Shown here: piece after piece, positions 31,000 to 46,700 of the stretch
Numbering within the stretch: position 1 is the first letter of the stretch
Layout: every line of letters starts with the position of its first letter
Origin: Vulcanimicrobiota bacterium
GTDB taxonomy: Bacteria > Vulcanimicrobiota > Xenobia > Xenobiales > JADMJV01
Direction of reading: 5' to 3'
Length of the DNA: 55,673 nt
NCBI GenBank assembly: GCA_050486105.1
Contig: JBJHCR010000004.1
Span: forward strand, 1 to 55,673
Translations under genes and position numbers: made by a program
The notes under the pieces: model-generated
The model's database searches: none
Seen by the model: only the letters and a program-made list of their open reading frames with translations
What the model was told of the DNA's origin: nothing

Positions 31000-31231
31000 A
31001 AGCCCAGTATTGGCTTAAAGTTGGGTGATCCTCTGCCCGTAACGGCAATTATTGAAGTTGAATGTCAACGGCCCCCTAGAAGTTAACATGATTTGCCCCA
31101 GGTCTAAGGAACTCCTAAGCACCATCTCTTAATCTGAGCTTGTGAGGCGTCGCCCTAGAAAGATCGGAAAACGCCAAGTAGTTATTTTAGGTAATTTTCA
31201 GGCAAGCCAGGTAGGCTAGGCTTAAGGAACG

Positions 31232-31549
31232 ATGACCATGACTTCAAGCATAAACCTCAGACAATTCAATCCCAAGAGACCTCGTCTGCAATACATTGCA
31301 TCCACGAGATTGCATTGCCCAATCTTAGAGTTCAAGAGAGTCGAGACCGCCTTCGGGACCATTTATTGGGACCAAACCAAGGCGCTCCCCGGTTTTCTGA
31401 GCGGGCTGTTTGGTGGGATGTTCGGATTTCTCGCTGGAGCAGTGGCCGGCTTTCAGGCCTTTGGCGGATTCGGGGGATTTGTCTTCGGACTCTTGGGGTG
31501 TGCTCTCGGCTCCGTTGCTTCCGCGTTGGCTGTGGTGCGAGTAAAGTAG
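31232..31549 (+). CDS. Small glycine-zipper membrane protein
   Basis: AAGGA SD; C-terminal GxxxG-rich hydrophobic hairpin. Confidence 0.55.
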   Translation: MTMTSSINLRQFNPKRPRLQYIASTRLHCPILEFKRVETAFGTIYWDQTKALPGFLSGLFGGMFGFLAGAVAGFQAFGGFGGFVFGLLGCALGSVASALAVVRVK

Positions 31550-31627
31550 TAACTCATCAGAGCCAGAAGGTTTCCCGCTATCCCAGAGTCGAATCCTGGG
31601 GGTAGTCTGATCGCGTCTGGAGCCGCC

Positions 31628-32998
31628 TTGCCCCCCTATCTGACTTTAGCTGACACCGCCTGGCTACACCTTGAGCAGCCGCACAATCTTATGATGATCA
31701 GCGGTCTCCTGATGTTGGATCGCAATCCCGACCGCGAGCGCTTAGAAATCATCCTGACCGAGAGACTTCTTTGCTTCGACCGTTTTCGTATGCTGGTGGT
31801 AGAGCCCCATCTCGGAGTAGGGCTGCCGCACTGGGAGTTCGATCCGCAGTTTCAACTTGCTCGACATTTGGGAGTAGAATCACTAGACGCTGGAGACGAA
31901 GGTACGCTGATGCTTAGGGTTGGAGAGCTCATGAGTGAGCCCTTGCCTCGGGACCGGCCACTCTGGGATCTGAGAGTCTTTGAGGACCTTGAGAATGGGG
32001 CCGCAGTGCTGGTTCGCCTTCATCACGCCATCGCCGATGGCATCGCCCTCGTTAGAGTTTTGCTGAACTTAGCCTGTCCACATCCGGAACACGAAATCGA
32101 ACCGAGTGTCCCTGAAGTGACTCCAGGGGGCCGTGGGACTGAGCCTTCGACCTTGGGCAAGAACTGGAAAAGGACCACCAAGGCAGCGAATCAACTCCTG
32201 AAGGCCGGTCACCAACTGCTTTTCCATCCTAGCGAAGCAGTCGCTCTGCTTTCTGGGAGTGTGCAGGCTGGCAAGGCTTTAGGTCGAGTCCTGACTCTTC
32301 CCGAAGATCGCCCCAATGTCCTAAGAGGAAGTCTCTCGGTCAAAAAGGTTGCAGCGGTTTCGCAACCCTTGTCGGTAGAAGCTCTGAAGGTAAAGGGGAA
32401 GAGACTGGGGTGCACGGTTAACGACCTCCTCATGGCGGTCCTAGCTGGTGCTTTCGGGAGACACCTGGCTCGCTCACAGGCCGTGGAACCAGACTTAGAG
32501 ATACGGGCCGTGGTTCCGGTGGATCTTAGAGGCGGTCAGGTGAAGGAGTTGGGGAATAAGTTTGGCCTTGTTTTCTTGCCTCTCCCAGTGGGTGAGCCAG
32601 ACCCACTAAGGCGCCTGGATAGGGTCCATCAGGCCATGCAGAATCTCAAGAACTCGGCAGAGGCTTTCATCACTTTTGAGTTGCTCAGTGCAGCGGGAAT
32701 TTTACCCGTTCAGCTCGAGCAAACTCTCATCGAATGGTTTGGCAACAAGGCGACAGCAGTTGTGACGAATCTTCACGGCCCAGACCAACCTATTTACCTT
32801 GGGGCAGCCAAGCTTACGGGCTTGATGTTTTGGGTTCCCCAGTCAGGTCAACTCGGAGTGGGAGTCAGCATGATAAGTTATGCGGGTGAGCTTCGAGTTG
32901 GAGTGGCGAGCGACTCAGGTCTGATGCCGGAACCTGGCCTATTTGTTGCGGATTTTCAACAGGCCTATGATGAGTTGTTGGATGGGCAGGATAGATGA
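31628..32998 (+). CDS. Wax ester synthase / diacylglycerol acyltransferase (WS/DGAT)
   Basis: HHAIADG catalytic motif, RDRPLW, TVNDLLMA, LGNKFG, TNLHGP, SYAG; TTG start with GGAG SD. Confidence 0.92.
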   Translation: MPPYLTLADTAWLHLEQPHNLMMISGLLMLDRNPDRERLEIILTERLLCFDRFRMLVVEPHLGVGLPHWEFDPQFQLARHLGVESLDAGDEGTLMLRVGELMSEPLPRDRPLWDLRVFEDLENGAAVLVRLHHAIADGIALVRVLLNLACPHPEHEIEPSVPEVTPGGRGTEPSTLGKNWKRTTKAANQLLKAGHQLLFHPSEAVALLSGSVQAGKALGRVLTLPEDRPNVLRGSLSVKKVAAVSQPLSVEALKVKGKRLGCTVNDLLMAVLAGAFGRHLARSQAVEPDLEIRAVVPVDLRGGQVKELGNKFGLVFLPLPVGEPDPLRRLDRVHQAMQNLKNSAEAFITFELLSAAGILPVQLEQTLIEWFGNKATAVVTNLHGPDQPIYLGAAKLTGLMFWVPQSGQLGVGVSMISYAGELRVGVASDSGLMPEPGLFVADFQQAYDELLDGQDR

Positions 32999-34542
32999 AA
33001 TTTGTTCCCAGCATGATTCTTCGGAGACTTTATCAACGCCAAAGTCTTCACAACGGGCCATCGGGAGCGACGTTCTCGATCAAGAATAGGCTCAAAGAAA
33101 CGAACTTGACTCGAGTGCTCTCCCTGGAGATTGATGGGGTGGCTGTGGACTTGGAAGGCGTTCTGTGCCGAACCGCAGAGGGAGAACGTCGCGCTAAGGA
33201 CCTCACAGAGGATTGCCCTCTGGACCTTCCGCTAGGTGCCACCGTTGAGCTCTGTGTTTCTTCATTGAGTCTTGAGCCTGGGAACCATCGCCTCAGATTG
33301 ACGTTTCAGGCCCCTCCCTTCGGGGTTCTAACCCTTGATGTCGAGGACCAATTGCGCCTCGAAGAGCGCGAGCAGACGGCCATCCCTCGCCACCCCAGGG
33401 ATGATTACTCCCAGGAGGCAATCGAGAGCAGGCTGGAGTTCTTGCATCATCATTGCGAGGGTCACTTGCACCACACCACTAAGCAAAGTTTCGATCCTCA
33501 TCTCACCCAAGGGAACATCGAGAACTTTGTCGGTGTGGCCCAGGTTCCCGTGGGACTGGCCGGACCACTGTTGATGAACGGAGAGCACGCCCAAGGAGAA
33601 TTCTACATTCCCTTGGCCACTACCGAAGGAACTTTGGTGGCTTCTTACAGTCGAGGTATGAAGCTCGTCAAGCGATGCGGAGGGGTGACTTGTACGGTCG
33701 TAGGAGATCAGATGCAGCGGGCTCCGGTTTTTGTCTTCTCGAGCGCCCGAGGTGGGCGGCGGTTTGTCGATTGGGTCGTCAGCAAGTTGTCGGAAATACG
33801 GGAAGTGGCTGAGGCCACGTCTACCGTGGCTCGACTGAAGCATATCGACTACTATCTCAGCAATCGATTTGCTTACTTGCGTTTTAATTTCACCACCGGA
33901 GACGCAGCAGGGCAGAACATGGTGGGTCGAGCCACCTTTGCTGCCTGCAATTGGATTTTGGAGAATTACAGACCAAACGAGATTCAAAGATTTTTCTTGG
34001 AATCGAATTTTGCCACTGACAAGAAGGCTTCCATGATCAACATTATGAGGACTCGAGGCAAGAGAGTCACCGCAGAGGTGACGGTTCCCCAGCAGGTTCT
34101 CATGGAGGTCATGGGGGTCGACACCGAAGTGCTGGCTTACCACCACGGGGTGGCCAATGTGGGGTCCTTCTTGGCTGGAGTCAACAATAACGGCTTGCAT
34201 TCCGCCAACGCTATTACAGCTCTGTTCATCGCTACCGGCCAGGATGTGGCCAACGTTTCGGAGGCCTCAGCGGCCATCATCTACACCGAGTTGCTGGAGA
34301 ACCGAGATTTATATTTCTCCATCACACTGCCGTCCCTTATAGTGGCAACTTACGGCGGTGGGACGGGCCTTGCTACCCAGAGAGAGTGCTTGGAAATGAT
34401 GGGCTGCTACGGCACCGGGAAGGTTCTCAAGTTTGCCGAATTGGTAGCTGGAACAGTGCTGGCCGGAGAACTTTCCTTGGCTTCAGCGATTTCATCTCTC
34501 GATTGGGTGTCGTCCCACGAGGCCTTAGGGCGCAATCGCTGA
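32995..34542 (+). CDS. Class I HMG-CoA-reductase-like oxidoreductase with ~120-aa N-terminal extra domain
   Basis: IENFVG, ATTEG, GDAAGQNM, TDKK, TGQD, GGGT and C-terminal His (SSHEAL); ATGA overlap with WS/DGAT. Confidence 0.88.
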   Translation: MKFVPSMILRRLYQRQSLHNGPSGATFSIKNRLKETNLTRVLSLEIDGVAVDLEGVLCRTAEGERRAKDLTEDCPLDLPLGATVELCVSSLSLEPGNHRLRLTFQAPPFGVLTLDVEDQLRLEEREQTAIPRHPRDDYSQEAIESRLEFLHHHCEGHLHHTTKQSFDPHLTQGNIENFVGVAQVPVGLAGPLLMNGEHAQGEFYIPLATTEGTLVASYSRGMKLVKRCGGVTCTVVGDQMQRAPVFVFSSARGGRRFVDWVVSKLSEIREVAEATSTVARLKHIDYYLSNRFAYLRFNFTTGDAAGQNMVGRATFAACNWILENYRPNEIQRFFLESNFATDKKASMINIMRTRGKRVTAEVTVPQQVLMEVMGVDTEVLAYHHGVANVGSFLAGVNNNGLHSANAITALFIATGQDVANVSEASAAIIYTELLENRDLYFSITLPSLIVATYGGGTGLATQRECLEMMGCYGTGKVLKFAELVAGTVLAGELSLASAISSLDWVSSHEALGRNR

Positions 34543-34849
34543 GCCCTTCCTTCTTCTGATGGAACGGGACTCACCCGTCGCTTGGGTCGACAGGAAAAAA
34601 AGCTTCCGCCTTGGCAATAAACTCGCGTTTCCTCACGTTATAAGTCTGCAGATGAAGGCTCCAGATGTTTTGGGGTTGGATCCCCCCGCTGGTTTGGCCG
34701 TTTCTTGGAATTGACGGTCTCCCGACAGTTGAGCGGTTCGAGCGGGTTTCTGACTAGGTCTCTCGGGTATACCTTTCCTTCGAGGCCATGGGACTGCACC
34801 TTTTGTGCGGCAGTCGAGTTGCATAGCGTATTGGGAGTTCGATAGGGTA

Positions 34850-36508
34850 ATGAAAGTTTTGAACAAGGGGATGAACCTCTTCTGGAATGGGTCCGACACC
34901 GACCTTCACTTCGGCGAGGAAGGGCTAAAAACGGCCCTCGACCGGCTAGAGGAGAGTTTTTGGGTTCTGCGGGACCAAGGCGGTGAGTTCGCTTACGCGC
35001 CAGCGGCCGGTGAGGGCCTTAATCCGGACCCTTCGGGTTCAGGTTGGGCCTTTCACGGGTTTTTGCCTCGCCTGACTCCCCGTGAATTAGGTGACCGCTC
35101 TTTCTGTGAAGCTCATAATGTCACCTATCCCTACGTGGTTGGCGCCATGGCTAACGGGATCACCAGTGCGGAGTTGGTTGAGGCTGCGGCCAGCACTGGG
35201 GCACTCGGCGTGTTTGGAGCCGCTGGTTTGACCTTGGACCGGGTCGAGGCCGCCATCGACCGCCTAGAGGCGAGCTTGGGACTGGATGGCTTCGGCTCCA
35301 ATTTGATTCATTCGCCTAATGAGCCGGACCTTGAAGAAGGTGTGGTGGACCTCTATCTTCGGCGAGGTATACGCAGGGTGAGCGCTTCAGCCTATCTGGG
35401 GCTAACTTTGCCTCTCCTCAAATACCGTTACCACGGCATCAGGCGAGATAGCGATGGAACAGTGGTCACCGACCAGCAAGTCTTGGGCAAGATCTCTCGA
35501 GTGGAAGTGGCAGAAAAACTGTTCTCTCCCCCGCCGGAGAAGATGCTTAGGGCCCTGGTGGAAAGTGGAGTTTTGACCTCTGAGCAAGCAGAACTCGCCG
35601 CTCTAGTTCCCGTCGCCGAAGACCTAACGGCAGAGGCGGATTCGGGTGGGCACACCGACAATCGGCCGGCCTTAGCCTTGCTTCCTACCATTATCGCTCT
35701 CAGGGATGAGAAGCAGAAGCTTTATCAGGGGTTACCCATCAATTTGCGGGTTGGAGCGGCCGGAGGGATATCGACTCCGGCATCGGCCTGCGCTGCCTTT
35801 GCGATGGGGGCGGCCTATATCGTGACGGGCAGTGTGAATCAGTCTTGCCGGGAGTCCGGGAGTTCGGACATTGTTCGAGAGATGCTGTGCAAGGCAGGGC
35901 AGGCGGACGTGGCCATGGCTCCGGCCGCCGACATGTTCGAAATGGGGGTCCAAGTGCAAGTGCTCAAATGGGGAACCATGTTTCCCGTTCGGGCCAAGAA
36001 ACTCTATCAATTGTATAGGGATTTTTCCTCGTTAGATGACCTCCCAGCGGCTGAGCGGGGGATTCTGGAAAAGAGTTTCTTCAAGCAGCCTCTGGAACAG
36101 GTTTGGGCTGACACCAAGGCCTTTTTTAAGGTTCGAGACCCCAGGCAGGTGGACCGAGCAGAGAAAGATCCCAAGCATCTGATGGCCTTGGTTTTTCGTT
36201 CTTACCTGGGGCGGGCGTCCGGGTGGGCCAACGCAGGGATCCCCGACCGCAAAGTGGATTATCAAGTTTGGTGTGGGCCTGCTATGGGGGCCTTCAATCA
36301 GTGGGTCGAAGGCACGTTCTTGGCTGAGCCCAAGGCTCGCAGAGCTGCAGTGGTAGCGAGAAATATCCTGGCCGGCTCTGCCTATTTGAGTAGGGTGAAC
36401 ATGCTGCGCCAACAGCAGGTTCCTCTCTCTCATGCGGTGGTGAAATTTTCGCCAAAGAGTCCAGAAGAGCTCGAAGCTCTGTTCGGCTCCCAGGGTAGAC
36501 AAGATTAA
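34850..36508 (+). CDS. pfaD: PUFA synthase enoyl reductase PfaD (FabK-like)
   Basis: GAMANGI, NLIHSP, EADSGGHTDNRP, GAAGGI, MAPAADMFEMG, YQVWCGPAMG. Start is ATG 34850 or 34871. Confidence 0.95.
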   Translation: MKVLNKGMNLFWNGSDTDLHFGEEGLKTALDRLEESFWVLRDQGGEFAYAPAAGEGLNPDPSGSGWAFHGFLPRLTPRELGDRSFCEAHNVTYPYVVGAMANGITSAELVEAAASTGALGVFGAAGLTLDRVEAAIDRLEASLGLDGFGSNLIHSPNEPDLEEGVVDLYLRRGIRRVSASAYLGLTLPLLKYRYHGIRRDSDGTVVTDQQVLGKISRVEVAEKLFSPPPEKMLRALVESGVLTSEQAELAALVPVAEDLTAEADSGGHTDNRPALALLPTIIALRDEKQKLYQGLPINLRVGAAGGISTPASACAAFAMGAAYIVTGSVNQSCRESGSSDIVREMLCKAGQADVAMAPAADMFEMGVQVQVLKWGTMFPVRAKKLYQLYRDFSSLDDLPAAERGILEKSFFKQPLEQVWADTKAFFKVRDPRQVDRAEKDPKHLMALVFRSYLGRASGWANAGIPDRKVDYQVWCGPAMGAFNQWVEGTFLAEPKARRAAVVARNILAGSAYLSRVNMLRQQQVPLSHAVVKFSPKSPEELEALFGSQGRQD

Positions 36509-36527
36509 GGTGAGGTAGATAGAGAAG

Positions 36528-39500
36528 ATGACGACGAAAACCGAGCAGGGAGTCCTACGCAACGGAGAGTTTGCCATCGTTGGGATGTCAGCGCTCTTTC
36601 CTAAGGCAGCGAACCTGAAAGCCTTCTGGAAGGTTCTGCGCCTTGGGGTCGACACCATTGGAGACATACCTTCGACTCACTGGAAGCCCGAGGATTACTT
36701 CGATGCGGATCAGAAGGCGCCCGATAAGACCTACTGTCGTCGCGGCGGTTTTCTCGATCCCTACCCTTTTGATCCCACGGAATTTTCCATGCCCCCTACG
36801 GTTCTTGAAGCCACCGACACTTCTCAACTCTTGGGCTTAGTGGCAGCCAAGGCTGCTCTCGAGGATGCCGGCTACACCAGTGAGCGGGAATTCGATCGTG
36901 AGATGACCAGCATCATCCTGGGCGTCACCGGGACCTTGGAGTTGGTGGTCCCTCTGGGGGCGCGCCTCGGGCACCCCTACTGGCGTAAGGCCCTGCAAGA
37001 ATCAGGCCTCAGCGATGACTTGGTGGAAGAGGTCATGACCCGCATCTCCGCAGACTATGTCCCTTGGCAGGAGAACTCTTTCCCTGGACTTTTGGGAAAT
37101 GTTGTCGCCGGTCGGATCGCCAATCGCTTGGACCTCCACGGGACGAACTGCGTGGTCGATGCAGCCTGTGCCAGCACCCTATCAGCGGCTCATTTGGCTT
37201 TGTTGGAACTGGAAACAGGTCAAGCCGATATGGTGATCACCGGAGGGGTCGACACCTTCAACGACATCTTTATGTACATGTGCTTCTCCAAGACTCCGGC
37301 TCTCAGCGCCTCAGGCCAGATTCGACCCTTTGACGCTCAAGGCGACGGTACCCTCATTGGAGAGGGTATTGGGATGGTGGTCCTCAAGCGCTTGGCCGAT
37401 GCCCAGCGAGACAAAGACCGCATTTATGCCGTGATTCGAGGGGTGGGCACCTCCAGCGACGGCAAAGAGAAGGCAGTTTATGCTCCGTTCTCTCCCGGAC
37501 AAGCCCGAGCTTTGCGCCGGGCCTACGAGAATGCCGGAGTGTCTCCCCGCACTATCGAATTGGTAGAGGCTCACGGGACCGGGACGAAAGTAGGAGATGT
37601 GGTGGAGTTCGAGGCCCTGAAAGGGGTCTACGCCGAAGCCAGTCCCGACCAGGGATGGTGCGCTTTAGGGAGCGTTAAGTCCCAGATCGGACACACCAAG
37701 GCAGCAGCGGGTTCGGCAGGTATGATCAAGGCAGCCTTGGCCCTGCATCATAAGGTTTTGCCGCCCACCATCAACATCAGTCGGCCAAATCCCAAGCTCG
37801 GGGTCGAGGAGAGCGCCTTCTACCTCAACACCCTCAGTCGGCCGTGGATCTCGCATCCGGAGCACCCGCGTCGGGCAGCTTTGTCGTCATTCGGCTTCGG
37901 TGGGAGCAACTTTCATATCGTTTTGGAAGAATACGGGGCGGCTCGGACCGAAGTGGCTTGGGATGGCAGCGTTGAGATCGCGGCCTTTTCGGGCTCGAGT
38001 CAAGTTGAGATCGCAAGAGCCGTGAAGAATCTGCTCGAAGGGCCGGGAGATTTGTCTCACGGTCTGTATCAGAACCGGAAAACCTTCGAGCCCAAGGCAC
38101 CTCATCGTCTGATTGTGCCGGCCCAGGCTTCGCAGATGAAGGAAGCCTTGACTGAAGCTCTCCAGGCTTTGGAGGGTGGGCAGCGCCCGAACTTCTATGG
38201 AGAAGGCCCGGTCCAAGGCAAGCTTGCCTTTCTCTTCCCCGGGCAGGGCTCACAGTACGTGAACATGGGTCGGGATTTGGCTTGTCTGTTCCCGGAAATG
38301 TTAGAATCTCTGGACTCCGTCGGTCGTGAGGTGGGCCAGGCTATCTACCCTCCGCCGACTCAAGATTCTCAACTGGAAAAGGCCCAGCAAGACTATTTGA
38401 CCTCCACCGACCGAGCTCAGCCCGCTCTAGGGGTCATCGAGCGAGGATATTTTCACCTATTGCAGCGTTTCGGTTTGACTCCCGAGGGGACGGCCGGTCA
38501 CTCCTATGGAGAATTGGTGGCGCTGTATGCTGCCGGTGTGCTCGACGGCCAAGGCTTAGCGGAGTTGTCTGCCGAGAGGGGTCGGTTGATGGCTCAGCAG
38601 GGCGAAGACCTAGGAACCATGATGGCGGTGAAAGGCTCTCTGGAGAAAGTTGAAAAAGTTCTCAAGGAGTCTGGCACCTCGGTAGTTCTGGCTAACCGCA
38701 ATTCTCCCGAGCAATGCGTGCTGTCAGGTTCCGAAAAGGACCTCAAGGCCCTCGCCCCGGAACTCAAGAAGGCTGGCTTGAAGGGCGTGCCTTTGAAGGT
38801 CGGGGCCGCTTTCCATAGCCCATTCGTGGCCGGCGCCCGAGACCCGTTCCACCAGGTGGCCTCAAAGGTTAAGTTCCATAAGTCTGAGATCCCGGTCTAC
38901 GCTAACAAGACTGCCAGCCCTTATCCGAAGTCGGGCAAGGCGGCCCGGGCGCTGCTGGCTGATCAGTTGGTCCATCAGGTCAATTTCGTGGAACTCATTG
39001 AAACCATGGCCTCCGATGGGTTCACCACTTTTGTTGAGGTTGGTCCCAAGACGGTCCTCGGCGGTCTGGTGAAGGCTATCCTGGCCGAATCTCAAGCAGC
39101 TCAGGTGGTTTCCTTGGATGCCTCAGCCGGGCGCTCAGATGCCCTCCTCGATCTGTCGAAAGCCCTGGCCCAGTTGGCTGCTTGGGGATGGTCGGTGGAC
39201 CTCGGCGCTTGGGAAACCGAGCCGGTGGTCAAGGCAAAGCAGCGGATGACGGTGGAGATATCGGGAGCGAATTACCGCAGCAAGACCCCGGTGAAACCGC
39301 CGATCAGGATCCAGGGTTCCGTGGGCACGCGAGACAAGGGTGCCGCGTTACCAACTCAGAGTTCGCATCTCTCGGCCAAAGTCACCGAAAGAGTTTCCGC
39401 CCCGACTCAAGCAGCAGCACCCCAGCCACCGAGTGCCCCCATCGCCGAACCAGGGCCTAGCTCTCGTTCCATGGTGAATGCAGCAGCACCGCAAGGTGGT

Positions 39501-42500
39501 ACCCACGCGGATAGTCGGACTTCAGCAAACGTCGGCCAGCCCTCCCTGGGAGCCCTATTGCCTCACTTTGAGGCTCTGCAGGAGCTCTCGAGACAGACGG
39601 CTCAAGTTCACCAACAATTTCTGAAAAGCCAGGAAGCGGCCCAGCGCACCCTCGGTCAGCTCTTGAGCGGAGCAGGGGAACGGCCCTCGCTCTCCCTTCG
39701 AGAAGCGGCGCCGCAACCCGTTCGCTCGGTACCGCAGAGCTGGCCTGTTTCCACCTCGAGGCCTTTGGTGCCGGTGAGCCAGGCGCCATCACCTCCGCCG
39801 AGACCAATGCCTATTCCGGCGGTGGCCGTGGTCGCCGAGGAGGTCAAACCTGCGGTTCGGGCAACAACCCAAGCGCCACCTAAGTCTGAGACCGCACCCG
39901 CGAGATCGGCCAGTCCCGAAGTTTCTCAGGCGTTGCTGAAAGTGGTAGCGGAGAAGACCGGGTATCCCGTCGAAATGCTGACCCTGGATATGGACTTGGA
40001 AGGAGACCTGGGGATCGACAGCATCAAGCGGGTGGAGATCCTGGCAGCGGTGGAAGAGGCCATACCCAATTTGCCTAAGGTGGATTCGGACCGTCTCGGC
40101 AGTTTGCGGACCTTGTCCGAGATTGTTGCCGCTCTGGGGAGCGCGGCGCCTTCGACTTTGAAAGCCACGGGAATCACGGTCGCTCCGATGGCCCAAGGTA
40201 ACCCAGAAGACGCTCGCGTGTCCCAGGCATTACTCGAGGTGGTGGCCGAAAAGACCGGTTACCCGGTTGAGATGCTGACCTTGGAGATGGACCTCGAAGG
40301 AGACCTCGGGATCGACAGCATCAAGCGAGTGGAGATTCTAGCTGCGGTGGAAGAGGCCATCCCTGGTTTGCCCAAGGTGGATTCAGACCGTTTAGGAAGT
40401 TTGCGGTCTCTGGGTGAGATCGTGGGTGCTCTCGCCCCTGCAGGAGCTGTGAGTCCATCCGCTCTAACGCCGACTCAGGAATCGAGTTCCGACTCTGGAG
40501 CCACCGCTCAAGCACTGATGCACGTGGTGGCTGACAAGACGGGTTACCCAGCGGAGATGCTGACCTTGGAAATGGATCTAGAGTCGGACCTGGGGATCGA
40601 CAGCATCAAGAGGGTGGAGATCCTAGCTGCGGTGGAAGAGGCCGTTCCCGGCTTGCCCAAGATCGATTCGGAAAGACTTGGAAGCCTGCGGACTCTTGGG
40701 GAGATCGTTTCCGCCCTGGGGAGTGGGACCCCCACTCCTGTGGCCGCTTCAGCGCCTCCAAGTCTCCTCGTCTCCAAGGGAGGTCAAGGAGGGGAAGCCG
40801 CCTCTTCAGCGCTGCTCAAAGTGGTGGCCGAGAAGACCGGCTATCCGGCCGAGATGTTGACCCTTGAGATGGACTTGGAGTCTGACCTGGGGATCGACAG
40901 TATCAAGAGGGTAGAGATCCTCGCTGCGGTGGAAGAGGCCGTGCCGGGGATGCCCAAAATCGACTCTGAGGTGCTGGGAAGCTTGAGAACCCTGGCCGAG
41001 ATCGTCGCTGCCCTCGGCTCAACCGGGGCAACTCCTTCTAGGGAAGAGTATGCCCCTTCCGTGAGCAACGCATCCGGAGGTGCGGTCTCAGAGGCTTTAC
41101 TCGAGGTGGTATCCGAAAAGACCGGATATCCTCTGGAAATGCTGACTTTAGATATGGATCTCGAAGGAGATCTCGGTATCGACAGCATCAAGAGGGTGGA
41201 GATCCTGGCTGCGGTGGAAGAGGCTGTGCCCAACCTTCCCAAACTGGACTCGGATCGTATGGGAAGCCTGCGGACCCTAGGGGAAATCGTTGAGGCCCTG
41301 TCGCTCGGTTCGGGCCCTGTGGTTGGACCCAGCCTGGCTTCTAGTGCTCACGCTGGGGTGACCCCTGCGGCCAAGATCAGTCGCCAAGCCTTACAGTTGG
41401 TGGATGTGGGTCCAGGGGATACGGTAGGCCTTCCGGTCGCCGAAGGTCGGCGTTTGGTGGTGATCGAGGACACTCCTGGTTTAGGACAAACCCTGGTTGA
41501 GGTGCTGGAATCTCGGGGTGTCTATTGCTCACTTTGGGGAGCCGAGGAGCCGCTTCCAGAGGATTTGGGAACCTTGGTCCTGGTCGGCAACGGGGGGCAA
41601 GGCGAGCGCTCGAGAGAGTTCCTGTTTCGAGCTTTCCAGAGAGTACGGGAGGCTTCTCAGTCGCTCCGAACTCACGCCGGAGGGCTCTTCACGGTGACCA
41701 CCTTGGATGGGAGTTTCGGTCTGAAGGGCAAGACTTTCGACCCCTTTATCGGAGGGCTCGCCGGTATTCCCAAGACGGTGGCTCACGAGTGGCCGGAAGT
41801 GGTCACCCGAGCCATCGATAGACACCCCGATCTGATGGTGGATGAGGTGGCTGAAGAACTGTTTAAGGATGGCCCGGTTGAAGTGGCCCTCACTCCTGGC
41901 CGCCGTGAGACTCTGGTGACCATGGTTAGTGACTCCACCGAAGGGACCCCTTATCTCGGAGCTGATGACGTGGTCTTGGTCACCGGTGGGGCTCGCGGAG
42001 TGACCGCTGCCTGTGCTTTGGCCGTAGCAGCTCAGCATCGATGCAAATTCGCCCTTTTGGGCCGCACCAAGCTCGAGGGACCCAGCTTCAGTCTGTATCC
42101 TGATTGCCCTGACGAAGCGTCCTTGAAGCGGACCATTCTGGCCCAACAGTTCTCTGGAAAAGCTAAACCCAAGGAACTCGAAGAAGCGGCTCGCAAAGTC
42201 CTCGGGCAACGGGAGATCCGTCAGAGCCTGGATGGCCTGAAGGCTCTGGGAGTTCAAGCCGAGTACTTGGCTTGCGATGTGCGCGACAAAGAGCAGTTAT
42301 CTCAGGCTATCAAGGAGATCACCGCGAGCCTGGGTCGGCCCACAGGCCTGATCCACGGTGCAGGGGTTCTGGCGGACCGCAAGATTGAGGACAAGACAGA
42401 TCAGCAGTTCCAGCAGGTTTTCGAAACCAAGGTTAAGAGCCTAGTGGCCCTCACCGAACTCTTGCCGGATCTCAAAGCCCTGGTTCTGTTCTCTTCGGTC

Positions 42501-43697
42501 ACCGCTCGATTTGGGCGCCCGGGTCAGATCGATTACTGCATGGCTAACGAGGTCTTGAATAAATACGCTCAGTTCGAGTCGCGCCGTAGACCGCGCTGCA
42601 AGGTGGTGGCCATGGGTTGGGGTCCATGGGCCGGGGGAATGGTCACCCCGGCTTTGGCCCGGGAATTCGAGAGGATCGGGGTGGGATTGATTCCCATCGA
42701 ACTCGGGGCGAAAGCGGTGGCCGACGAATTGGCCCAACAAGGAGGTTCGGCTCACGCTGAAGTCCTCTTTGGAGACGGTTTCCCTGAACCGGCGCCGACG
42801 GTCCGCCGGACTAAGGACCACAGCGATGGAAGCGGAAAGCTGCTGTTGCAGAAGACCCTTTCCGTCAAAACCCTACCTTTTCTCGATTCCCACCGTTTGG
42901 GTGGGGACCCGGTCTTGCCTATGGCCATGATGCAGGAGTGGTTCGTCCAAGGAGCCCTCCATGGCGGAACCGGCCTTCGCTTGATCGGCATCGATGACCT
43001 CAGAGTCTTTCGCGGTGCGGTGATCCGAGATGGCGTGGAACCGACCTTGGTGGTGACGGCCCAAGAGGGTCAAATGACCAGCCAAACCGGGAATTATCGC
43101 TGGACTCTGGAGCTTCGAGACATCAGTCGCAACATTCTCCACGCCCGGGCCACCGTGGTTCTCGGTGATGCCTTACCCGAGCAGCCTGAGGCCCGAGAGT
43201 TGAATGGGATAGCCTCCAACGCTTACGGCCATGACAGCGAATCGATATACAGCAACCTTTTGTTCCACGGAACGGACTTCCACGCCGTGAGCGAGGTGTC
43301 AGGGATCTCGGATCGAGGGCTGGCCGCTCTGCTCAAGGTGGCGAAGGCTCCAGCTCACTGGGAAGCTGAGCCCTTGCGCTCCGACTGGGTGACCGAGCCT
43401 CTGGTGGTCGATGGAGTGCTGCAATTAGGGATTCTCTGGTCTTGGGAGAACCTAGGGAAGCCTTCCCTGCCGAATGGCTTTGCCCGCTATCGTCAGTACG
43501 TCAGGAGATTCCCGAAGAAGCCGGTGACCGCAATTCTGAGAGTGACCTCCTCCAGTGAACGCAGTGTGGTCGCTGACTGCGAGTTGCGCGATGAAAAAGG
43601 CAGGGTCCTGGCAACCTTCGAGAAGCTCGACTGGACGGCCGATGAGGGCCTGAAGGCGGCCTTCGGTCTGCCGAGCGCTCTAGCGTCCCGGAGCTAG
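36528..43697 (+). CDS. pfaA: PUFA synthase PfaA: KS-MAT-(ACP)5-KR-DH
   Basis: KS DAACAS/EAHGTGT/IGHTK; MAT GHSYG/AFHS; five LGIDSIKRVEIL ACPs; KR GGARGVT...DYCMANE; DH HRLGGDPVLP. Confidence 0.96.
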   Translation: MTTKTEQGVLRNGEFAIVGMSALFPKAANLKAFWKVLRLGVDTIGDIPSTHWKPEDYFDADQKAPDKTYCRRGGFLDPYPFDPTEFSMPPTVLEATDTSQLLGLVAAKAALEDAGYTSEREFDREMTSIILGVTGTLELVVPLGARLGHPYWRKALQESGLSDDLVEEVMTRISADYVPWQENSFPGLLGNVVAGRIANRLDLHGTNCVVDAACASTLSAAHLALLELETGQADMVITGGVDTFNDIFMYMCFSKTPALSASGQIRPFDAQGDGTLIGEGIGMVVLKRLADAQRDKDRIYAVIRGVGTSSDGKEKAVYAPFSPGQARALRRAYENAGVSPRTIELVEAHGTGTKVGDVVEFEALKGVYAEASPDQGWCALGSVKSQIGHTKAAAGSAGMIKAALALHHKVLPPTINISRPNPKLGVEESAFYLNTLSRPWISHPEHPRRAALSSFGFGGSNFHIVLEEYGAARTEVAWDGSVEIAAFSGSSQVEIARAVKNLLEGPGDLSHGLYQNRKTFEPKAPHRLIVPAQASQMKEALTEALQALEGGQRPNFYGEGPVQGKLAFLFPGQGSQYVNMGRDLACLFPEMLESLDSVGREVGQAIYPPPTQDSQLEKAQQDYLTSTDRAQPALGVIERGYFHLLQRFGLTPEGTAGHSYGELVALYAAGVLDGQGLAELSAERGRLMAQQGEDLGTMMAVKGSLEKVEKVLKESGTSVVLANRNSPEQCVLSGSEKDLKALAPELKKAGLKGVPLKVGAAFHSPFVAGARDPFHQVASKVKFHKSEIPVYANKTASPYPKSGKAARALLADQLVHQVNFVELIETMASDGFTTFVEVGPKTVLGGLVKAILAESQAAQVVSLDASAGRSDALLDLSKALAQLAAWGWSVDLGAWETEPVVKAKQRMTVEISGANYRSKTPVKPPIRIQGSVGTRDKGAALPTQSSHLSAKVTERVSAPTQAAAPQPPSAPIAEPGPSSRSMVNAAAPQGGTHADSRTSANVGQPSLGALLPHFEALQELSRQTAQVHQQFLKSQEAAQRTLGQLLSGAGERPSLSLREAAPQPVRSVPQSWPVSTSRPLVPVSQAPSPPPRPMPIPAVAVVAEEVKPAVRATTQAPPKSETAPARSASPEVSQALLKVVAEKTGYPVEMLTLDMDLEGDLGIDSIKRVEILAAVEEAIPNLPKVDSDRLGSLRTLSEIVAALGSAAPSTLKATGITVAPMAQGNPEDARVSQALLEVVAEKTGYPVEMLTLEMDLEGDLGIDSIKRVEILAAVEEAIPGLPKVDSDRLGSLRSLGEIVGALAPAGAVSPSALTPTQESSSDSGATAQALMHVVADKTGYPAEMLTLEMDLESDLGIDSIKRVEILAAVEEAVPGLPKIDSERLGSLRTLGEIVSALGSGTPTPVAASAPPSLLVSKGGQGGEAASSALLKVVAEKTGYPAEMLTLEMDLESDLGIDSIKRVEILAAVEEAVPGMPKIDSEVLGSLRTLAEIVAALGSTGATPSREEYAPSVSNASGGAVSEALLEVVSEKTGYPLEMLTLDMDLEGDLGIDSIKRVEILAAVEEAVPNLPKLDSDRMGSLRTLGEIVEALSLGSGPVVGPSLASSAHAGVTPAAKISRQALQLVDVGPGDTVGLPVAEGRRLVVIEDTPGLGQTLVEVLESRGVYCSLWGAEEPLPEDLGTLVLVGNGGQGERSREFLFRAFQRVREASQSLRTHAGGLFTVTTLDGSFGLKGKTFDPFIGGLAGIPKTVAHEWPEVVTRAIDRHPDLMVDEVAEELFKDGPVEVALTPGRRETLVTMVSDSTEGTPYLGADDVVLVTGGARGVTAACALAVAAQHRCKFALLGRTKLEGPSFSLYPDCPDEASLKRTILAQQFSGKAKPKELEEAARKVLGQREIRQSLDGLKALGVQAEYLACDVRDKEQLSQAIKEITASLGRPTGLIHGAGVLADRKIEDKTDQQFQQVFETKVKSLVALTELLPDLKALVLFSSVTARFGRPGQIDYCMANEVLNKYAQFESRRRPRCKVVAMGWGPWAGGMVTPALAREFERIGVGLIPIELGAKAVADELAQQGGSAHAEVLFGDGFPEPAPTVRRTKDHSDGSGKLLLQKTLSVKTLPFLDSHRLGGDPVLPMAMMQEWFVQGALHGGTGLRLIGIDDLRVFRGAVIRDGVEPTLVVTAQEGQMTSQTGNYRWTLELRDISRNILHARATVVLGDALPEQPEARELNGIASNAYGHDSESIYSNLLFHGTDFHAVSEVSGISDRGLAALLKVAKAPAHWEAEPLRSDWVTEPLVVDGVLQLGILWSWENLGKPSLPNGFARYRQYVRRFPKKPVTAILRVTSSSERSVVADCELRDEKGRVLATFEKLDWTADEGLKAAFGLPSALASRS
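39921..41300 (+). repeat. Five tandem ACP domain repeats within pfaA
   Basis: Five copies of VVxxKTGYPxEMLTLxMDLExDLGIDSIKRVEILAAVEEA separated by Ala/Ser/Pro linkers. Confidence 0.95.
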
Positions 43698-43711
43698 AAA
43701 GGCCAATAAAC

Positions 43712-46700
43712 TTGAATCAACGGTATTCTGTCGCCGTAGTGGGTCTCGGTGGAGTATTTCCGGCAGCCCCCAACGTCGACGCTTATTGGGAGAATATCCT
43801 CGGACGTCGTGACGCTTGCCGAGAGATCGGAGAGGGGCGCTGGCCCGATCGTCCGGATTGGTATTCCGCTCGAGGCTCTGCCGATCGAGTGGCCTCCCTT
43901 CGGGCATGTTTGCTGGAGGCTGTCCCTGAGCCGAAGAGCGGTGATCCTCAGGGACTGAAACTCGACGATCTGAGTAAGCTTTCTCTGGTGGCAGCCGAGA
44001 TGGCCCTCGAGGACGCCAGTGCTCCGATTCGCTCCAAGGAACGGGTCGCTACCATCATGGCCTCCATAGCTCTTCCAACCGCCGAATCATCTCGCCTTTC
44101 TGAAGAGATCTTCTTGGGGCAGTTGGCAGCGGGCCTGACTCCCCGCCCCGAGTCCCCTTCTTTGACGGTGGATCCGTCTTGGAGGGAGGTCACCGGAAGA
44201 GCCGCTCAAGTGATCGCTCGAAGCTTGGGCTTCGGAGGGTTCACGCTGACCTTGGATGCCGCCTGCGCCTCTTCGCTCTATGCTGTGAAGTTGGCTTGCG
44301 ACGCCCTCGTTGATGGGCGGGTCGATGCGGTCCTAGCGGGAGGAGTGAACCGAGCCGACAGCCTTTACACCCAGGCCGGATTCACAGCCTTGGGCGCTCT
44401 GAGCCCAACCGGTCGCTGCTCTCCATTCGACGCCCGAGGCACCGGTCTGGTGGTGGGGGAAGGAGCCGGCGTCTTGCTGCTCAAGCGTTTTTCCGACGCC
44501 GTTCAGGATGGGGACCGAATCTATGCCGTGATTCAGGGAATCGGGCTGTCCAATGACATTGGAGGAAGTCTGCTCGCTCCCGACTCTGAAGGGCAGCTTC
44601 GAGCTCTGCAACTGGCTTACGCTCAGGCTGGGTGGAGCCCTGAAGAGGTGCGCTTGGTTGAGTGCCATGGAACCGGCACCCCCATGGGTGACAAGACTGA
44701 GTTTCGCTCGTTGACCGATTTCTGGCCTGCAGAGGTTCCACAGAGGACGGTGCTGGGCTCGGTGAAATCGCAAATAGGACATCTTCTGACCGGTGCTGGG
44801 GCGGCGGGCTTGATTAAGGTGATCAAGGCTATTCACCATGGAATTCTTCCGCCGATGATCAATTTTGAGTCTCCAGCTCCGGGAATCGATCTCCAGAAGA
44901 GTGCTTTCGAGATTCTGGATCAACCCAGAGAATGGACCGGGGATACAGTTCGCAGAGGGGGAGTGTCGGCATTCGGCTTTGGCGGCATCAATGGTCATGT
45001 CTTGCTGGAAGCTCCTCATAAGCCAACCTCGCTGACCCCTTCGCCCTCGAAACCCCGGGTCAATCCCGAAGAGGTGGTGGTCACGGGACTGGCCGTGCAT
45101 TTGGGACAAGAGCACGACCTCGAGCGGATCATGGTAGACCTTTTTTGGGATCACAGTTCCGTCGGGCCCCGGCCCCAAGGACGTTGGCCGAACGAACTGG
45201 CCGGCGAGAGCGGGCCTCTCCAAGAGTTGTCAGAAATCTGGGGTCTCTTTTTGAGTGAGTTAGAAGTGGAGGTCGGTCAGTTCAGGGTGCCTCCCCGGGA
45301 CCTTCCAGAGATTTTGCTGCAGCAGTCTTTATTGCTGGCGGTAGCAGGCCGAGCAGTTGGCATGAGCTCCCTCGGAGATAAGGCGCGGTGTCGCCGAAGC
45401 GGGGCTCTCATCGGCGTAAATTTGGATCTGGAGACCACCAACTACCATCTGCGATGGGCCTTGAATCGTATGCTGGGCAAGCTCGGTGTCGACCCCGAGG
45501 CTTTCGATGAACCGACTCGAGAGCGCCTCAGAGATTCCCTGTCGAGGGTTCTGGACTCAACTCGGACTTTGGGAGCCTTGGGGAGTATCGTCGCCAGTCG
45601 AGCGGCTCGAGAGTTTTCCTTGGGAGGGCCCTCCTACGCCATTTCTTGCGGAGAACTATCCGGTGTTAGAGCCTTCGAGGTCGCTTACCGGGCCATCTCC
45701 CATGGGGAGATGGACAGTTGTCTGGTGGGGGCTATCGATCTGGCGGGAGACCCTCGCGCGGTTTGGTCTGAAGATGGACAAACTCCCTTCATCAGGGGGA
45801 CTTGCGCTCGCCCGTTCGATCAGGACGGGGTTGGTCCTACGATTTCAGAAGGCGCGGTGGTCTTGATCCTCAAGAGTCGTTCAGCAGCTGAGGCAGACGG
45901 GGACAAGATCCTGGCCGTCGTGGAGGACCTCCAGGCAGCCGGGGGCGTCGGTGGACTGAGGTCGGTGCTGCAGGGCAGCGCCCAAGCTATGGCTGACCGC
46001 GGCGAAGGCCAGGATCGGATCGGCTATGTGGAAATCCTGTCCCGGGGTGAGGAAGTCTCCGACAGTCGTTTCCTCAAGCTTTGGGACGAAATCTTCCCCG
46101 GAGCCCAGGACCGGCATTTCCCTCATGTAGCCCTCGGCAGCGCCGTGGGTTCTTTGGGCTTTCCCGGTGCGGCCTCAGGCCTGTTGGCCGTGACTCGTGC
46201 GGTGGTGGCCTTGTCAGGGAAGGTGATCCCGGCCCTCACTGGTTGCCGGACTCCGCTACCAACCTCCGAGCACCTGTATTTCCCCCGGGAACCTCATTTT
46301 TGGTGGAATGACCGAGAAGCTGGACCGAGACGAGCCCTGGCTGTTGGGGAAGGACGCGGTGGCGACGCATTCTCCTTGAAGTTGCGTGAAGCAGCCAAGA
46401 ATTTCTCTGTTGAGCCAGGAGACTTGGCTCCTCCTCGATGGAAGCTACTCGAGGCCCAATTATTCCTGGTGCATAAGGGCCAAGAAGGCAGACTTTCGGA
46501 GCTTGCGGCCGAGGGCCACGAGCTGCCCGAGTTGGCCAGGCAGTGGTGGCAAGTTCAACGCCATTCCAAGGATGCTCAGGGCGATACTCGGGGAGCTCTG
46601 GTCTGCCGCAGCGTTGAGGAGTTGCGGAAAGGCCTCGAGATCCTAAAGGAGCGATTTCGGACCGGGGGGCAACCCCTGGATGGCCCAGCTGGAGTATTTT

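What the first reader, a model, noticed from the sequence alone, without database searches (positions are those of the whole stretch)
31628..34542. WS/DGAT coupled to an HMG-CoA-reductase-like enzyme with a remodelled HMG pocket: possible new route to wax-ester alcohols
Seen: ATGA overlap, and no other mevalonate-pathway gene in the window. By-eye alignment to human class I HMGR keeps the catalytic E559 (ATTEG), K691 (DKK), D767 (GQD) and H866 equivalents. The carboxylate-binding K735 (NKNLVGS) is replaced (GVANVGS, no Lys), S684 (SGNY) reads ESNF, and DAMGMN reads DAAGQN. Known: HMGR does a 4-electron reduction of a CoA thioester to a primary alcohol, and WS/DGAT needs an alcohol acceptor. 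Inference: this enzyme may reduce a non-HMG acyl- or 3-hydroxyacyl-CoA to an alcohol or diol that WS/DGAT esterifies, i.e. an HMGR-fold acyl-CoA reductase.
Basis: partly seen in the sequence, partly recalled or inferred. Interest (0 to 1): 0.78.

Follow-up and report, generated by a model that had tools for sequence, protein, structure and literature searches.

The report
Wax-ester gene pair using FcrA reductase

Summary
WS/DGAT (31628-32998) and an HMGR-like gene (32995-34542) overlap by ATGA. The catalytic Glu, Lys, Asp and His are kept, while positions 684, 735 and 862 (human numbering) read Glu, Val and Trp.

The interpretation, an HMGR-fold acyl-CoA reductase feeding a wax synthase, is supported but not new. 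Grossi et al. (ISME J 2025) named this family FcrA and showed one member reduces C14-C18 acyl-CoA, but not HMG-CoA, to alcohol. They give the same signature (Ser684 to Glu, the carboxylate-binding Lys lost, Leu862 to Trp) and an N-terminal 10-strand "Lad" domain. The window protein has all of these. Its genome has this single HMGR homologue and no match to HMG-CoA synthase, mevalonate kinase or the decarboxylase, but does have DXR, IspG and IspH.

- The pair is a small movable cassette. The same 4-nt overlap occurs in 4 of 4 nearest relatives, each with different flanking genes.
- Here the cassette sits directly upstream of a lineage-wide pfaD-pfaA-pfaC operon. None of six congeners has it at that site.
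- pfaD keeps its own conserved upstream motif.

Coupling to the Pfa synthase is therefore possible but unsupported. Verdict: a new member of a known kind, of low to moderate interest.

The parts
31628..32998 (+). WS/DGAT wax-ester/triacylglycerol synthase, 456 aa, with the HHAIADG active-site motif (H132, H133, D137, G138)
   Evidence: TIGR02946 scores 328.6 bits against a cut-off of 309.95. PF03007 and PF06974 both match. H132, H133, D137 and G138 are invariant in 46 homologues. The public gene call uses the same start (P0245).
32995..32998 (+). ATGA stop/start overlap, implying translational coupling of WS/DGAT and fcrA
   Evidence: Sequence. The same 4-nt overlap occurs in 4 of 4 nearest paired relatives: ORF coordinates for L103, L107 and L144, and GTGA in L102.
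32995..34542 (+). fcrA: HMGR-derived fatty acyl-CoA reductase, 515 aa
   Evidence: PF00368 scores 411 bits and PF25653 scores 90 bits. It falls below the canonical-HMGR equivalog cut-off: TIGR00533 scores 355.5 against 441.8. The family is described in PMC11948995.
33016..33354 (+). N-terminal Lad-type beta domain (residues 8-120), followed by an unstructured linker (residues 121-139)
   Evidence: PF25653 matches residues 8-120. The AF2 model shows ten strands between residues 19 and 120, then a coil to residue 139; block-mean pLDDT is 86-93 over residues 11-120. This matches the paper's description of 10 beta strands plus a linker.
33418..34533 (+). Class-I HMGR-fold catalytic domain (residues 142-513). 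Catalytic E211, K343, D417 and H508 are present. Pocket residues are E336 (34000-34002), V386 (34150-34152) and W504 (34504-34506).
   Evidence: Foldseek top hits are 6hr7 (E 3e-38, TM 0.87 on the target) and human HMGR.
31000..34590 (.). Approximate extent of DNA absent from the same site in congeners. It holds orf105, WS/DGAT and fcrA, between the unknown 202-aa gene (30391-30999, minus strand) and the conserved pfaD upstream region.
   Evidence: In 6 of 6 same-genus genomes the 202-aa gene is followed by pfaD, with no WS/DGAT or FcrA match in the stretch. No flanking repeats were found. Composition is not distinct.
31232..31549 (+). orf105: a small Gly-rich hydrophobic ORF inside the extra DNA. 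Whether it is a real gene is unknown.
   Evidence: Translation. No Pfam match. No homologue in the congener or cassette loci.
34614..34641 (+). GCAATAAA-N14-CGTTAT, a conserved element upstream of pfaD (probably a promoter or operator), kept downstream of fcrA
   Evidence: Both halves are invariant in 6 of 6 aligned pfaD upstream regions. It occurs once in the window, against 0.07 expected by chance.
34850..55671 (+). Neighbouring, lineage-conserved pfa-type cluster: pfaD 34850-36508; pfaA 36528-43697 (KS-AT-5xACP-KR-DH); pfaC-like 43712-50806; unknown 1021 aa 50982-54047; alpha/beta hydrolase 53957-54928; AMP-binding ligase 54784-55671 (3' open). This is context, not shown to belong to the wax-ester module.
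   Evidence: PfaD is present in 39 of 44 genomes of the class. The same six genes in the same order occur in G015 and G013, which have no FcrA match.

Best explanation
The two genes form a translationally coupled wax-ester module.

1. FcrA is a class-I HMGR descendant. Its HMG pocket has been rebuilt into a long hydrophobic channel: Glu replaces Ser684, Val/Ala replaces the carboxylate-binding Lys735, and Trp replaces Leu862. It also carries an N-terminal 10-strand alkyl-binding 'Lad' domain.
2. FcrA uses 2 NADPH to reduce a long-chain (about C14-C18) fatty acyl-CoA to the primary fatty alcohol, using the unchanged HMGR catalytic Glu, Lys, Asp and His.
3. The WS/DGAT encoded just upstream then esterifies that alcohol with a second acyl-CoA to give a wax ester.

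What is shown here: gene anatomy, residue signature, domain architecture, fold, absence of the mevalonate pathway, and conservation of the overlapping pair. What is inferred from the published biochemistry of a homologue: substrate, cofactor and product. The pair behaves as a movable two-gene accessory cassette. In this genome it landed upstream of the pfa operon, which most likely keeps its own regulation.
For: Family and signature
- PF00368 plus PF25653 match.
- The protein scores below the canonical HMGR equivalog cut-off.
- Catalytic residues are identical to human HMGR, while 684, 735 and 862 read E, V and W (by index arithmetic).
- Across 266 homologues (not de-duplicated), the Glu559, Lys691, Asn755 and Asp767 columns are invariant in 266 and His866 in 265. 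The 862 column is W in 252 and F in 12. The 684 column is E in 199 and S in 50. The 8 commonest residues listed at each of the two columns that pair with Lys735 in the human and 6hr7 alignments include no Lys. The window protein belongs to the largest class (E, W, N-domain present), 165 of 266.

Structure
- The AF2 model (mean pLDDT 85) has a ten-strand N-domain and a linker.
- Its top fold matches are class-I HMGRs.

Pathway context in the own genome
- One HMGR homologue only.
- No HMG-CoA synthase match above the cut-off.
- No mevalonate kinase and no diphosphomevalonate decarboxylase.
- DXR, IspG and two IspH are present.

Pairing with WS/DGAT
- The WS/DGAT is bona fide.
- The 4-nt overlap recurs in 4 of 4 nearest relatives. 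Together with the window these form an exclusive 4-row clade, SH-like support 94.
- At least 15 of the top FcrA homologues share a contig length with a top WS/DGAT homologue.
- Within the class, 9 of 10 FcrA-positive genomes also have WS/DGAT.

Published function
- PMC11948995, abstract and sections 18-20.
Against: - No enzyme from this clade was assayed. The characterised enzyme comes from a Chloroflexi-type bacterium, and I did not have its sequence to align or place in a tree.
- The paper itself notes that fcrA often occurs without WS/DGAT and may serve ether-lipid synthesis.
- The genome also has a second WS/DGAT and 18 NAD_binding_4 matches, some of which could be other acyl-CoA reductases.
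- DXS was not found above its cut-off, so the MEP pathway is not seen complete in this 93%-complete assembly.
- Two His (H383, H384) sit just before the 735 position, and I could not inspect their geometry.
Confidence: 0.85

Rival explanations
1. Pfa-coupled variant. In this genome the cassette is read together with, or fed by, the downstream Pfa synthase. The alpha/beta hydrolase frees the Pfa product, the AMP-binding ligase makes its CoA ester, FcrA reduces it, and WS/DGAT builds wax esters with Pfa-derived chains (polyunsaturated or unusually long).
For: All eight genes lie on one strand from 31628 to the window end, and together they supply every step needed. The fcrA-pfaD gap is only 307 nt. 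The one terminator-like hairpin in it is weak, and the count of such sites is not above chance (7 found against 4.5 +/- 2.3 expected). One unrelated MAG locus (L015) has fcrA 2.1 kb upstream of a pfa-like KS-AT-KS-ACP gene within a FadL/GDSL-lipase/acyl-CoA-dehydrogenase neighbourhood.
Against: - The adjacency is not conserved. None of 6 congeners has the cassette at this site.
- In the 4 relatives that have both genes on known contigs, fcrA and pfaD lie on different contigs.
- PfaD lies within about 10 kb of fcrA in 0 of 147 other loci, and a PfaA-like KS in 1 of 147. Many of those loci are shorter than the 10-kb flank requested.
- The six-gene pfa cluster is intact in G015 and G013, which have no FcrA match.
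- PfaD is present in 39 of 44 genomes of the class against 10 of 44 for FcrA.
- The conserved pfaD upstream motif is retained between fcrA and pfaD.
Confidence: 0.1
2. FcrA supplies fatty alcohol mainly for something other than wax esters, such as alkyl ether lipids, while the WS/DGAT acts chiefly as a diacylglycerol acyltransferase making triacylglycerol.
For: Section 20 of the paper says fcrA co-occurs with WS/DGAT less than acrB does, and is sometimes next to PlsC-like or AGPS genes. WS/DGAT enzymes are bifunctional as a family, as the family names indicate. WS/DGAT lies within about 10 kb of fcrA in only 7 of 80 and 5 of 67 wider loci.
Against: In this subclade the two genes overlap by 4 nt in the window and in 4 of 4 relatives, while every other flanking gene differs. 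That argues the two products work together. No PlsC or AGPS gene was seen beside the cassette in the window, though I did not search the genome for AGPS.
Confidence: 0.08
3. A genuine HMG-CoA reductase making mevalonate for isoprenoids.
For: The Pfam HMG-CoA_red match is strong (411 bits) and all four catalytic residues are present. Public records annotate relatives as HMG-CoA reductase. DXS was not found above its cut-off.
Against: - It scores below the NCBIfam equivalog cut-off.
- Residues 684, 735 and 862 are replaced as in FcrA, which is inactive on HMG-CoA.
- No HMG-CoA synthase, mevalonate kinase or decarboxylase was found.
- DXR, IspG and IspH are present.
- The gene overlaps a wax synthase.
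Confidence: 0.02

Closest known systems
FcrA, the HMGR-derived fatty acyl-CoA reductase (Grossi et al., ISME J 2025, PMC11948995; tested enzyme Pb-FcrA from 'Ca. Promineifilum breve'; modelled enzyme from Natronomonas pharaonis)
   Same: The class-I HMGR catalytic domain keeps its Glu, Lys, Asp and His. It has Glu at 684, a small non-basic residue at 735 and Trp at 862. It has the N-terminal 10-strand Lad domain plus linker. The genome lacks the mevalonate pathway. WS/DGAT is present.
   Different: No assay exists for this protein. Here fcrA is fused into an overlapping operon with WS/DGAT, whereas the paper mentions adjacency in only two Halovenus genomes and one Holophagaceae contig. At 735 it has Val/Ala rather than the Gly of N. 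pharaonis. It lies next to a pfa cluster; a term search of the paper's main text for 'pfa', 'polyketide' and 'polyunsaturated' found 0 occurrences. The supplements could not be seen.
Class-I HMG-CoA reductase (human, PDB 1DQ8/1DQA; Methanothermococcus thermolithotrophicus, PDB 6HR7)
   Same: Same fold: Foldseek E 3e-38, TM 0.8-0.88 on the target, 34-41% identity. Same catalytic residues and the same C-terminal helix carrying the His. Same four-electron thioester-to-alcohol chemistry, by inference.
   Different: The residues that bind the HMG carboxylate are replaced. It has an extra N-terminal domain. It scores below the equivalog cut-off. There is no mevalonate pathway around it.
[quoted passage not shown]
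   Same: Same overall reaction and the same partner, WS/DGAT, in wax-ester synthesis (paper).
   Different: The fold is unrelated. According to the paper, FarA and AcrB also reduce the aldehyde, whereas FcrA does not.
WS/DGAT AtfA of Acinetobacter baylyi ADP1 (the family prototype used in the paper)
   Same: Both Pfam domains match, TIGR02946 scores above its cut-off, and the HHxxxDG motif is present.
   Different: The identity to AtfA was not measured here. This copy is translationally coupled to its reductase.
Pfa-type PUFA/secondary-lipid synthases (pfaABCD; Shulse and Allen 2011, PMC3098273, passages only)
   Same: The neighbouring genes have the PfaD, PfaA (KS-AT-ACP5-KR-DH) and PfaC (KS-CLF-AT-FabA DH) architecture.
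   Different: They are not part of the finding's two genes, and their product in this lineage is unknown. That paper's text holds no 'wax', 'HMG' or 'alcohol' term.

Membership tests
FcrA (HMGR-derived fatty acyl-CoA reductase) | Class-I HMGR catalytic domain and fold | tested here: met
   PF00368 scores 411 bits over residues 142-513. Foldseek top hits are 6hr7 and human HMGR.
FcrA (HMGR-derived fatty acyl-CoA reductase) | Catalytic Glu559, Lys691, Asp767 and His866 conserved | tested here: met
   E211, K343, D417 and H508 are identities in the alignment to 1dq8. The Glu, Lys and Asp columns are invariant in 266 of 266 homologues and the His in 265 of 266.
FcrA (HMGR-derived fatty acyl-CoA reductase) | Ser684 replaced by Glu | tested here: met
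   E336 falls at index 263, which is residue 684. This column is E in 199 of 266 homologues.
FcrA (HMGR-derived fatty acyl-CoA reductase) | The carboxylate-binding Lys (735; printed as 795 in the paper) replaced by a small residue | tested here: met
   V386 falls at residue 735 and the loop reads HHGVANVGS. The 8 commonest residues listed at that column and the next include no Lys.
FcrA (HMGR-derived fatty acyl-CoA reductase) | Leu862 replaced by a bulky aromatic residue (Trp) | tested here: met
   W504 falls at residue 862. This column is W in 252 and F in 12 of 266 homologues.
FcrA (HMGR-derived fatty acyl-CoA reductase) | N-terminal Lad domain of 10 beta strands joined by an unstructured linker (present in part of the family) | tested here: met
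   PF25653 matches residues 8-120. The model has ten strands between residues 19 and 120 and a coil over 121-139. The hydrophobic pocket itself was not examined.
FcrA (HMGR-derived fatty acyl-CoA reductase) | Genome lacks the mevalonate pathway | tested here: met
   There is a single HMGR hit. HMG-CoA synthase, mevalonate kinase and the decarboxylase are absent, while DXR, IspG and IspH are present. The assembly is 92.9% complete and DXS was not found.
FcrA (HMGR-derived fatty acyl-CoA reductase) | Branches inside the monophyletic FcrA clade with the characterised enzymes, apart from canonical HMGR | not tested
   I held no sequence of Pb-FcrA, N. pharaonis FcrA or a canonical HMGR. Indirect support only: 51-62% full-length identity, Lad domain included, to homologues in MAGs labelled Ardenticatenaceae and Thermoplasmata.
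FcrA (HMGR-derived fatty acyl-CoA reductase) | NADPH-dependent reduction of C14 or longer acyl-CoA to alcohol; no activity on HMG-CoA; statin-insensitive | not testable with these tools
   This needs an enzyme assay.
Canonical HMG-CoA reductase (NADPH), TIGR00533 equivalog | Score at or above the curated cut-off | tested here: not met
   355.5 bits against a cut-off of 441.8.
Canonical HMG-CoA reductase (NADPH), TIGR00533 equivalog | HMG-binding residues Ser684, Lys735 and Leu862 | tested here: not met
   These positions read E, V and W.
WS/DGAT (wax ester synthase / diacylglycerol acyltransferase) | Family model above its cut-off and an HHxxxDG catalytic motif | tested here: met
   TIGR02946 scores 328.6 against 309.95. 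The motif HHAIADG is present, and H132, H133, D137 and G138 are invariant in 46 sequences.
Pfa-synthase-linked tailoring genes | Conserved linkage of the pair to pfa genes across relatives | tested here: not met
   None of 6 congeners has the pair at this site. PfaD lies near fcrA in 0 of 147 wider loci.

The most novel reading that the evidence does not exclude
The cassette's landing directly upstream of the pfa operon is functional. WS/DGAT and FcrA draw on CoA esters of the Pfa synthase product, released by the cluster's alpha/beta hydrolase and activated by its AMP-binding ligase. This bacterium would then store or export wax esters built from polyunsaturated or otherwise unusual Pfa-derived alcohols and acids. 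A link between a PUFA-type synthase and an HMGR-fold reductase was not found in the literature searches, nor by term search in the FcrA paper's main text.
Probability: 0.1. Interest if true: 0.55.

Novelty: new member of a known kind. Interest (0 to 1): 0.27.

Why it matters
The finding shows that 'HMG-CoA reductase' annotations in MEP-pathway bacteria can hide a wax-ester pathway. Every source-supplied name among the 120 best homologues listed calls them HMG-CoA reductase. The residue triad E/small/W at 684/735/862, together with PF25653, gives a quick way to re-label them.

The overlapping WS/DGAT-fcrA subclade is a compact, naturally coupled two-gene unit. It could be useful for engineering wax-ester or fatty-alcohol production. 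It is also a natural place to test whether the Lad domain hands alcohol to the synthase.

The position beside a pfa operon is a lead for unusual wax esters, but the evidence for it is weak.

Tried and rejected
- Canonical HMGR reading: rejected on pocket residues, the equivalog score and the missing pathway.
- Conserved pfa linkage: tested against 6 congeners, 5 further relatives and 147 wider loci, and not found, apart from one unrelated locus (L015).
- Recent foreign origin of the cassette: GC (0.543-0.549 against 0.564 for the window) and GC3 are not distinctive. No flanking direct or inverted repeats mark an insertion. No remnant of the cassette lies in the closest congener's gap.
- Fold of the Lad domain alone: I folded it without an alignment. 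The model was poor (mean pLDDT 61), so I made no fold search on it.
- Complex prediction of FcrA with WS/DGAT: it returned no verdict (score 0.00, below the mark), which is no evidence either way.
- The protein-atlas search on the unknown 1021-aa protein: no usable hit.
- The look-up of sequencing runs, to look for transcripts spanning fcrA-pfaD: the machine was unreachable three times, so no read evidence was obtained.
- Taxon: not named by any tool. The closest labelled FcrA fragments are labelled Thermoanaerobaculia. The closest labelled PfaD relatives are labelled Planctomycetota or Phycisphaerae, at about 59-65% identity.
- Supplementary files of the FcrA paper, which may list lineages, neighbourhoods and pocket models, could not be read.
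Full report
**Observation**

- WS/DGAT runs 31628-32998 (456 aa). It starts at TTG with GGAG six bases upstream.
- The HMGR-like gene runs 32995-34542 (515 aa).
- They share ATGA at 32995-32998.

Pfam gives WS_DGAT_cat and WS_DGAT_C for the first gene. For the second it gives HMG-CoA_red (411 bits, residues 142-513) and HMG-CoA_red_N (PF25653, residues 8-120). NCBIfam puts the first above the WS/DGAT cut-off (328.6 against 309.95). It puts the second below the canonical HMGR equivalog cut-off (355.5 against 441.8).

**Residue mapping**

One search aligned the protein to human HMGR chains 1dq8 and 2q1l. The output prints the match line but not the chain's letters, so I mapped positions by index.
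- An offset of 421 places E211, K343, D417 and H508 on residues 559, 691, 767 and 866. All four are identities.
- The same offset places E336, V386 and W504 on residues 684, 735 and 862. All three are dissimilar.

**What it is**

A literature search turned up Grossi et al., ISME J 2025 (PMC11948995). I read its abstract, sections 18-20 and several passages. The paper reports the following.
- It defines FcrA as a monophyletic offshoot of class-I HMGR, often with an N-terminal 10-strand 'Lad' domain.
- Purified FcrA from 'Ca. Promineifilum breve' oxidises NADPH with C14-C18 acyl-CoA. It is inactive on HMG-CoA and on the C16:1 aldehyde, and 10 uM simvastatin does not inhibit it.
- With a WS/DGAT it makes wax esters in E. 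coli.
- The catalytic Glu559, Lys691, Asp767 and His866 are kept.
- Ser684 becomes Glu, the HMG-binding Lys becomes a small residue, and Leu862 becomes Trp. The Lys is printed as 'Lys795', but the spacing in N. pharaonis FcrA shows that 735 is meant.
- Bacteria that carry only this homologue lack the mevalonate pathway.

The window protein meets each sequence criterion.
- Among 266 homologues gathered here (120 database proteins plus translated loci, not de-duplicated), the four catalytic columns are invariant apart from one gap at His866.
- The 862 column is W in 252 and F in 12. The 684 column is E in 199 and S in 50.
- The residue tallies listed for the two columns that pair with Lys735 show no Lys.
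- The window protein belongs to the commonest class (E, W, N-domain present), 165 of 266.

An AlphaFold2 model built on 46 sequences (mean pLDDT 85) shows ten strands between residues 19 and 120, a coil to residue 139, and then the HMGR fold. Foldseek's best PDB matches are the M. thermolithotrophicus and human HMGRs, with E-values from 3e-38 to 1e-33.

**Pathway context in the genome**

The assembly is 6.78 Mb in 590 contigs and is 92.9% complete.
- It has one HMGR-family match, this one.
- No HMG-CoA synthase scores above the cut-off with either of two models.
- There is no mevalonate kinase and no diphosphomevalonate decarboxylase.
- DXR, IspG and two IspH are present.
- DXS was not found above its cut-off. 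This gap is left open.
- The genome also has a second WS/DGAT and 18 NAD_binding_4 matches.

**Surroundings**

In order it contains:
- pfaD, 34850-36508 (TIGR02814, 598 bits);
- pfaA, with KS-AT-5xACP-KR-DH;
- a pfaC-like gene with KS, CLF, AT and FabA-type DH domains;
- an unknown 1021-aa protein;
- an alpha/beta hydrolase;
- an AMP-binding ligase.

All of these are on the same strand as the pair, which raised the idea that the Pfa product feeds FcrA and WS/DGAT. Comparative data argue against a conserved link.
- PfaD is in 39 of 44 genomes of the class, and in 24 of 24 high-quality ones. FcrA is in 10 of 44.
- In 6 of 6 same-genus genomes examined, the unknown 202-aa gene (window 30391-30999, minus strand) is followed by pfaD-pfaA. 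No WS/DGAT or FcrA match lies in that stretch.
- In G005, G006, G012 and G014, fcrA and pfaD lie on different contigs.
- G015 and G013 have the same six-gene pfa cluster and no FcrA match.
- An element GCAATAAA-N14-CGTTAT is invariant upstream of pfaD in all six aligned genomes. In the window it lies between fcrA and pfaD at 34614-34641. pfaD has therefore kept its own upstream region.
- Among 80 genome loci and 67 metagenome loci around FcrA homologues, PfaD was near in 0 and a PfaA-like KS in 1 (L015). Many of these loci are short.

About 3.5 kb (orf105, WS/DGAT and fcrA) is therefore extra DNA at this site in this genome alone. Its composition is unremarkable and no flanking repeats were found.

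**The pair as a unit**

WS/DGAT sits immediately upstream of fcrA, on the same strand and with a 4-nt overlap, in four relatives: G012, G014 (GTGA), a G019 contig and metagenome locus L144. The genes flanking these pairs are unrelated from one genome to the next:
- TPR, CBS and patatin genes in G014;
- VIT/VWA, bPH and fructosamine kinase genes in G012;
- a GMC oxidoreductase gene in L144.

In a FastTree of 140 catalytic-domain rows, the window, G012, G014 and L144 form an exclusive 4-row clade with SH-like support 94. That tree used loci only, left out database proteins and gappy rows, dropped six duplicates, and was rooted at the midpoint. The clade's sister rows lack a nearby WS/DGAT.

Equal contig lengths tie at least 15 of the best FcrA database hits to the best WS/DGAT hits. 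In G005 the two genes are adjacent but convergent, and in G006 no WS/DGAT lies within the 19.9 kb examined.

Across the wider family, WS/DGAT lies within about 10 kb in 7 of 80 and 5 of 67 loci. Within the class, 9 of 10 FcrA-positive genomes also have WS/DGAT. Seven genomes have WS/DGAT without FcrA.

**Mechanism**

- *Inferred from the published enzyme:* FcrA uses 2 NADPH and the HMGR catalytic machinery to take a long-chain acyl-CoA through the thiohemiacetal and aldehyde to the alcohol. The chain sits in a pocket that is lengthened by loss of Lys735, closed by Trp at 862, and made hostile to a carboxylate by Glu at 684. WS/DGAT (HHAIADG motif) then transfers a second acyl group onto the alcohol.
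- *Shown here:* the sequence, domain, fold, genomic and comparative features. No activity was measured.

**Comparison and novelty**

This is a new member of the FcrA family in a previously unremarked arrangement: a translationally coupled WS/DGAT-fcrA cassette. The paper mentions simple adjacency in only three genomes.

It is now published biochemistry.

The position next to a pfa operon is the only feature with real novelty potential, and I give functional coupling about 10%. Literature searches for pfa together with HMGR or wax synthase and for FcrA follow-ups found nothing on such a link. A term search of the FcrA paper's main text found no mention of pfa or polyketides. Its supplements were closed.

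**Dead ends**

These are listed under Tried and rejected:
- a no-verdict complex prediction;
- a poor single-sequence Lad model;
- an unreachable sequencing-run index;
- the closed earlier-findings tool.

Noticed in passing
window 34850-55671: A six-gene pfa-type cluster: pfaD, pfaA with 5 ACPs, a pfaC-like gene, an unknown 1021-aa protein, an alpha/beta hydrolase and an AMP-binding ligase. The order is conserved in congeners G015 and G013, and PfaD is present in 39 of 44 genomes of the class. Its lipid product in this lineage is unknown.
   Followed up: partly
window 34614-34641: GCAATAAA-N14-CGTTAT is invariant upstream of pfaD in 6 of 6 aligned genomes of the genus. It occurs once in the window (0.07 expected by chance). 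It is likely a promoter or operator of the pfa operon. It was not matched by the sigma-70 scan.
   Followed up: partly
window 50982-54047: An unknown 1021-aa protein between pfaC and the hydrolase, with no Pfam match and no usable ESM Atlas hit. It is about 70% identical in congeners, and G013 carries a second, tandem copy.
   Followed up: partly
window 31232-31549: orf105 has a Gly-rich hydrophobic C-terminal half that looks like a glycine zipper. It lies in the extra DNA just upstream of WS/DGAT. It has no homologue in the congener or cassette loci, and may not be a real gene.
   Followed up: partly
L015 3650-18110: In an unrelated MAG, fcrA sits in a same-strand lipid neighbourhood: FadL, GDSL lipase, FcrA, acyl-CoA dehydrogenase, DinB, then a 2293-aa KS-AT-KS-ACP protein and a PKS dehydratase. 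This was the only other FcrA locus of 147 with a pfa-like gene nearby.
   Followed up: partly
L097-L099 (G021-G023), L193-L198, L202: A divergent group of HMGR-like proteins, 36-42% identical to the window's FcrA and mostly about 430-440 aa without the Lad domain. They have Glu at 684 but Phe instead of Trp at 862. Their function is open.
   Followed up: no
own genome G000 (whole assembly): DXS was not found above its cut-off (best 66.6 bits against 465.95), although DXR, IspG and two IspH are present. Either it lies in the missing about 7% of the genome, or there is an alternative entry to the MEP pathway.
   Followed up: no
L106 and L107 (two contigs of G019): Two FcrA fragments in one congener differ sharply in identity to the window protein. 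The C-terminal 215 aa are 82% identical. The N-terminal 304 aa, which are preceded by WS/DGAT, are 57% identical. There may be two fcrA genes or a mixed bin.
   Followed up: no
window 10178-19156 and 26212-29073: Several large ORFs (668, 958, 904 and 953 aa) have no Pfam match. The 953-aa one has multiple paralogous matches near the T2SS-F gene in congeners.
   Followed up: no
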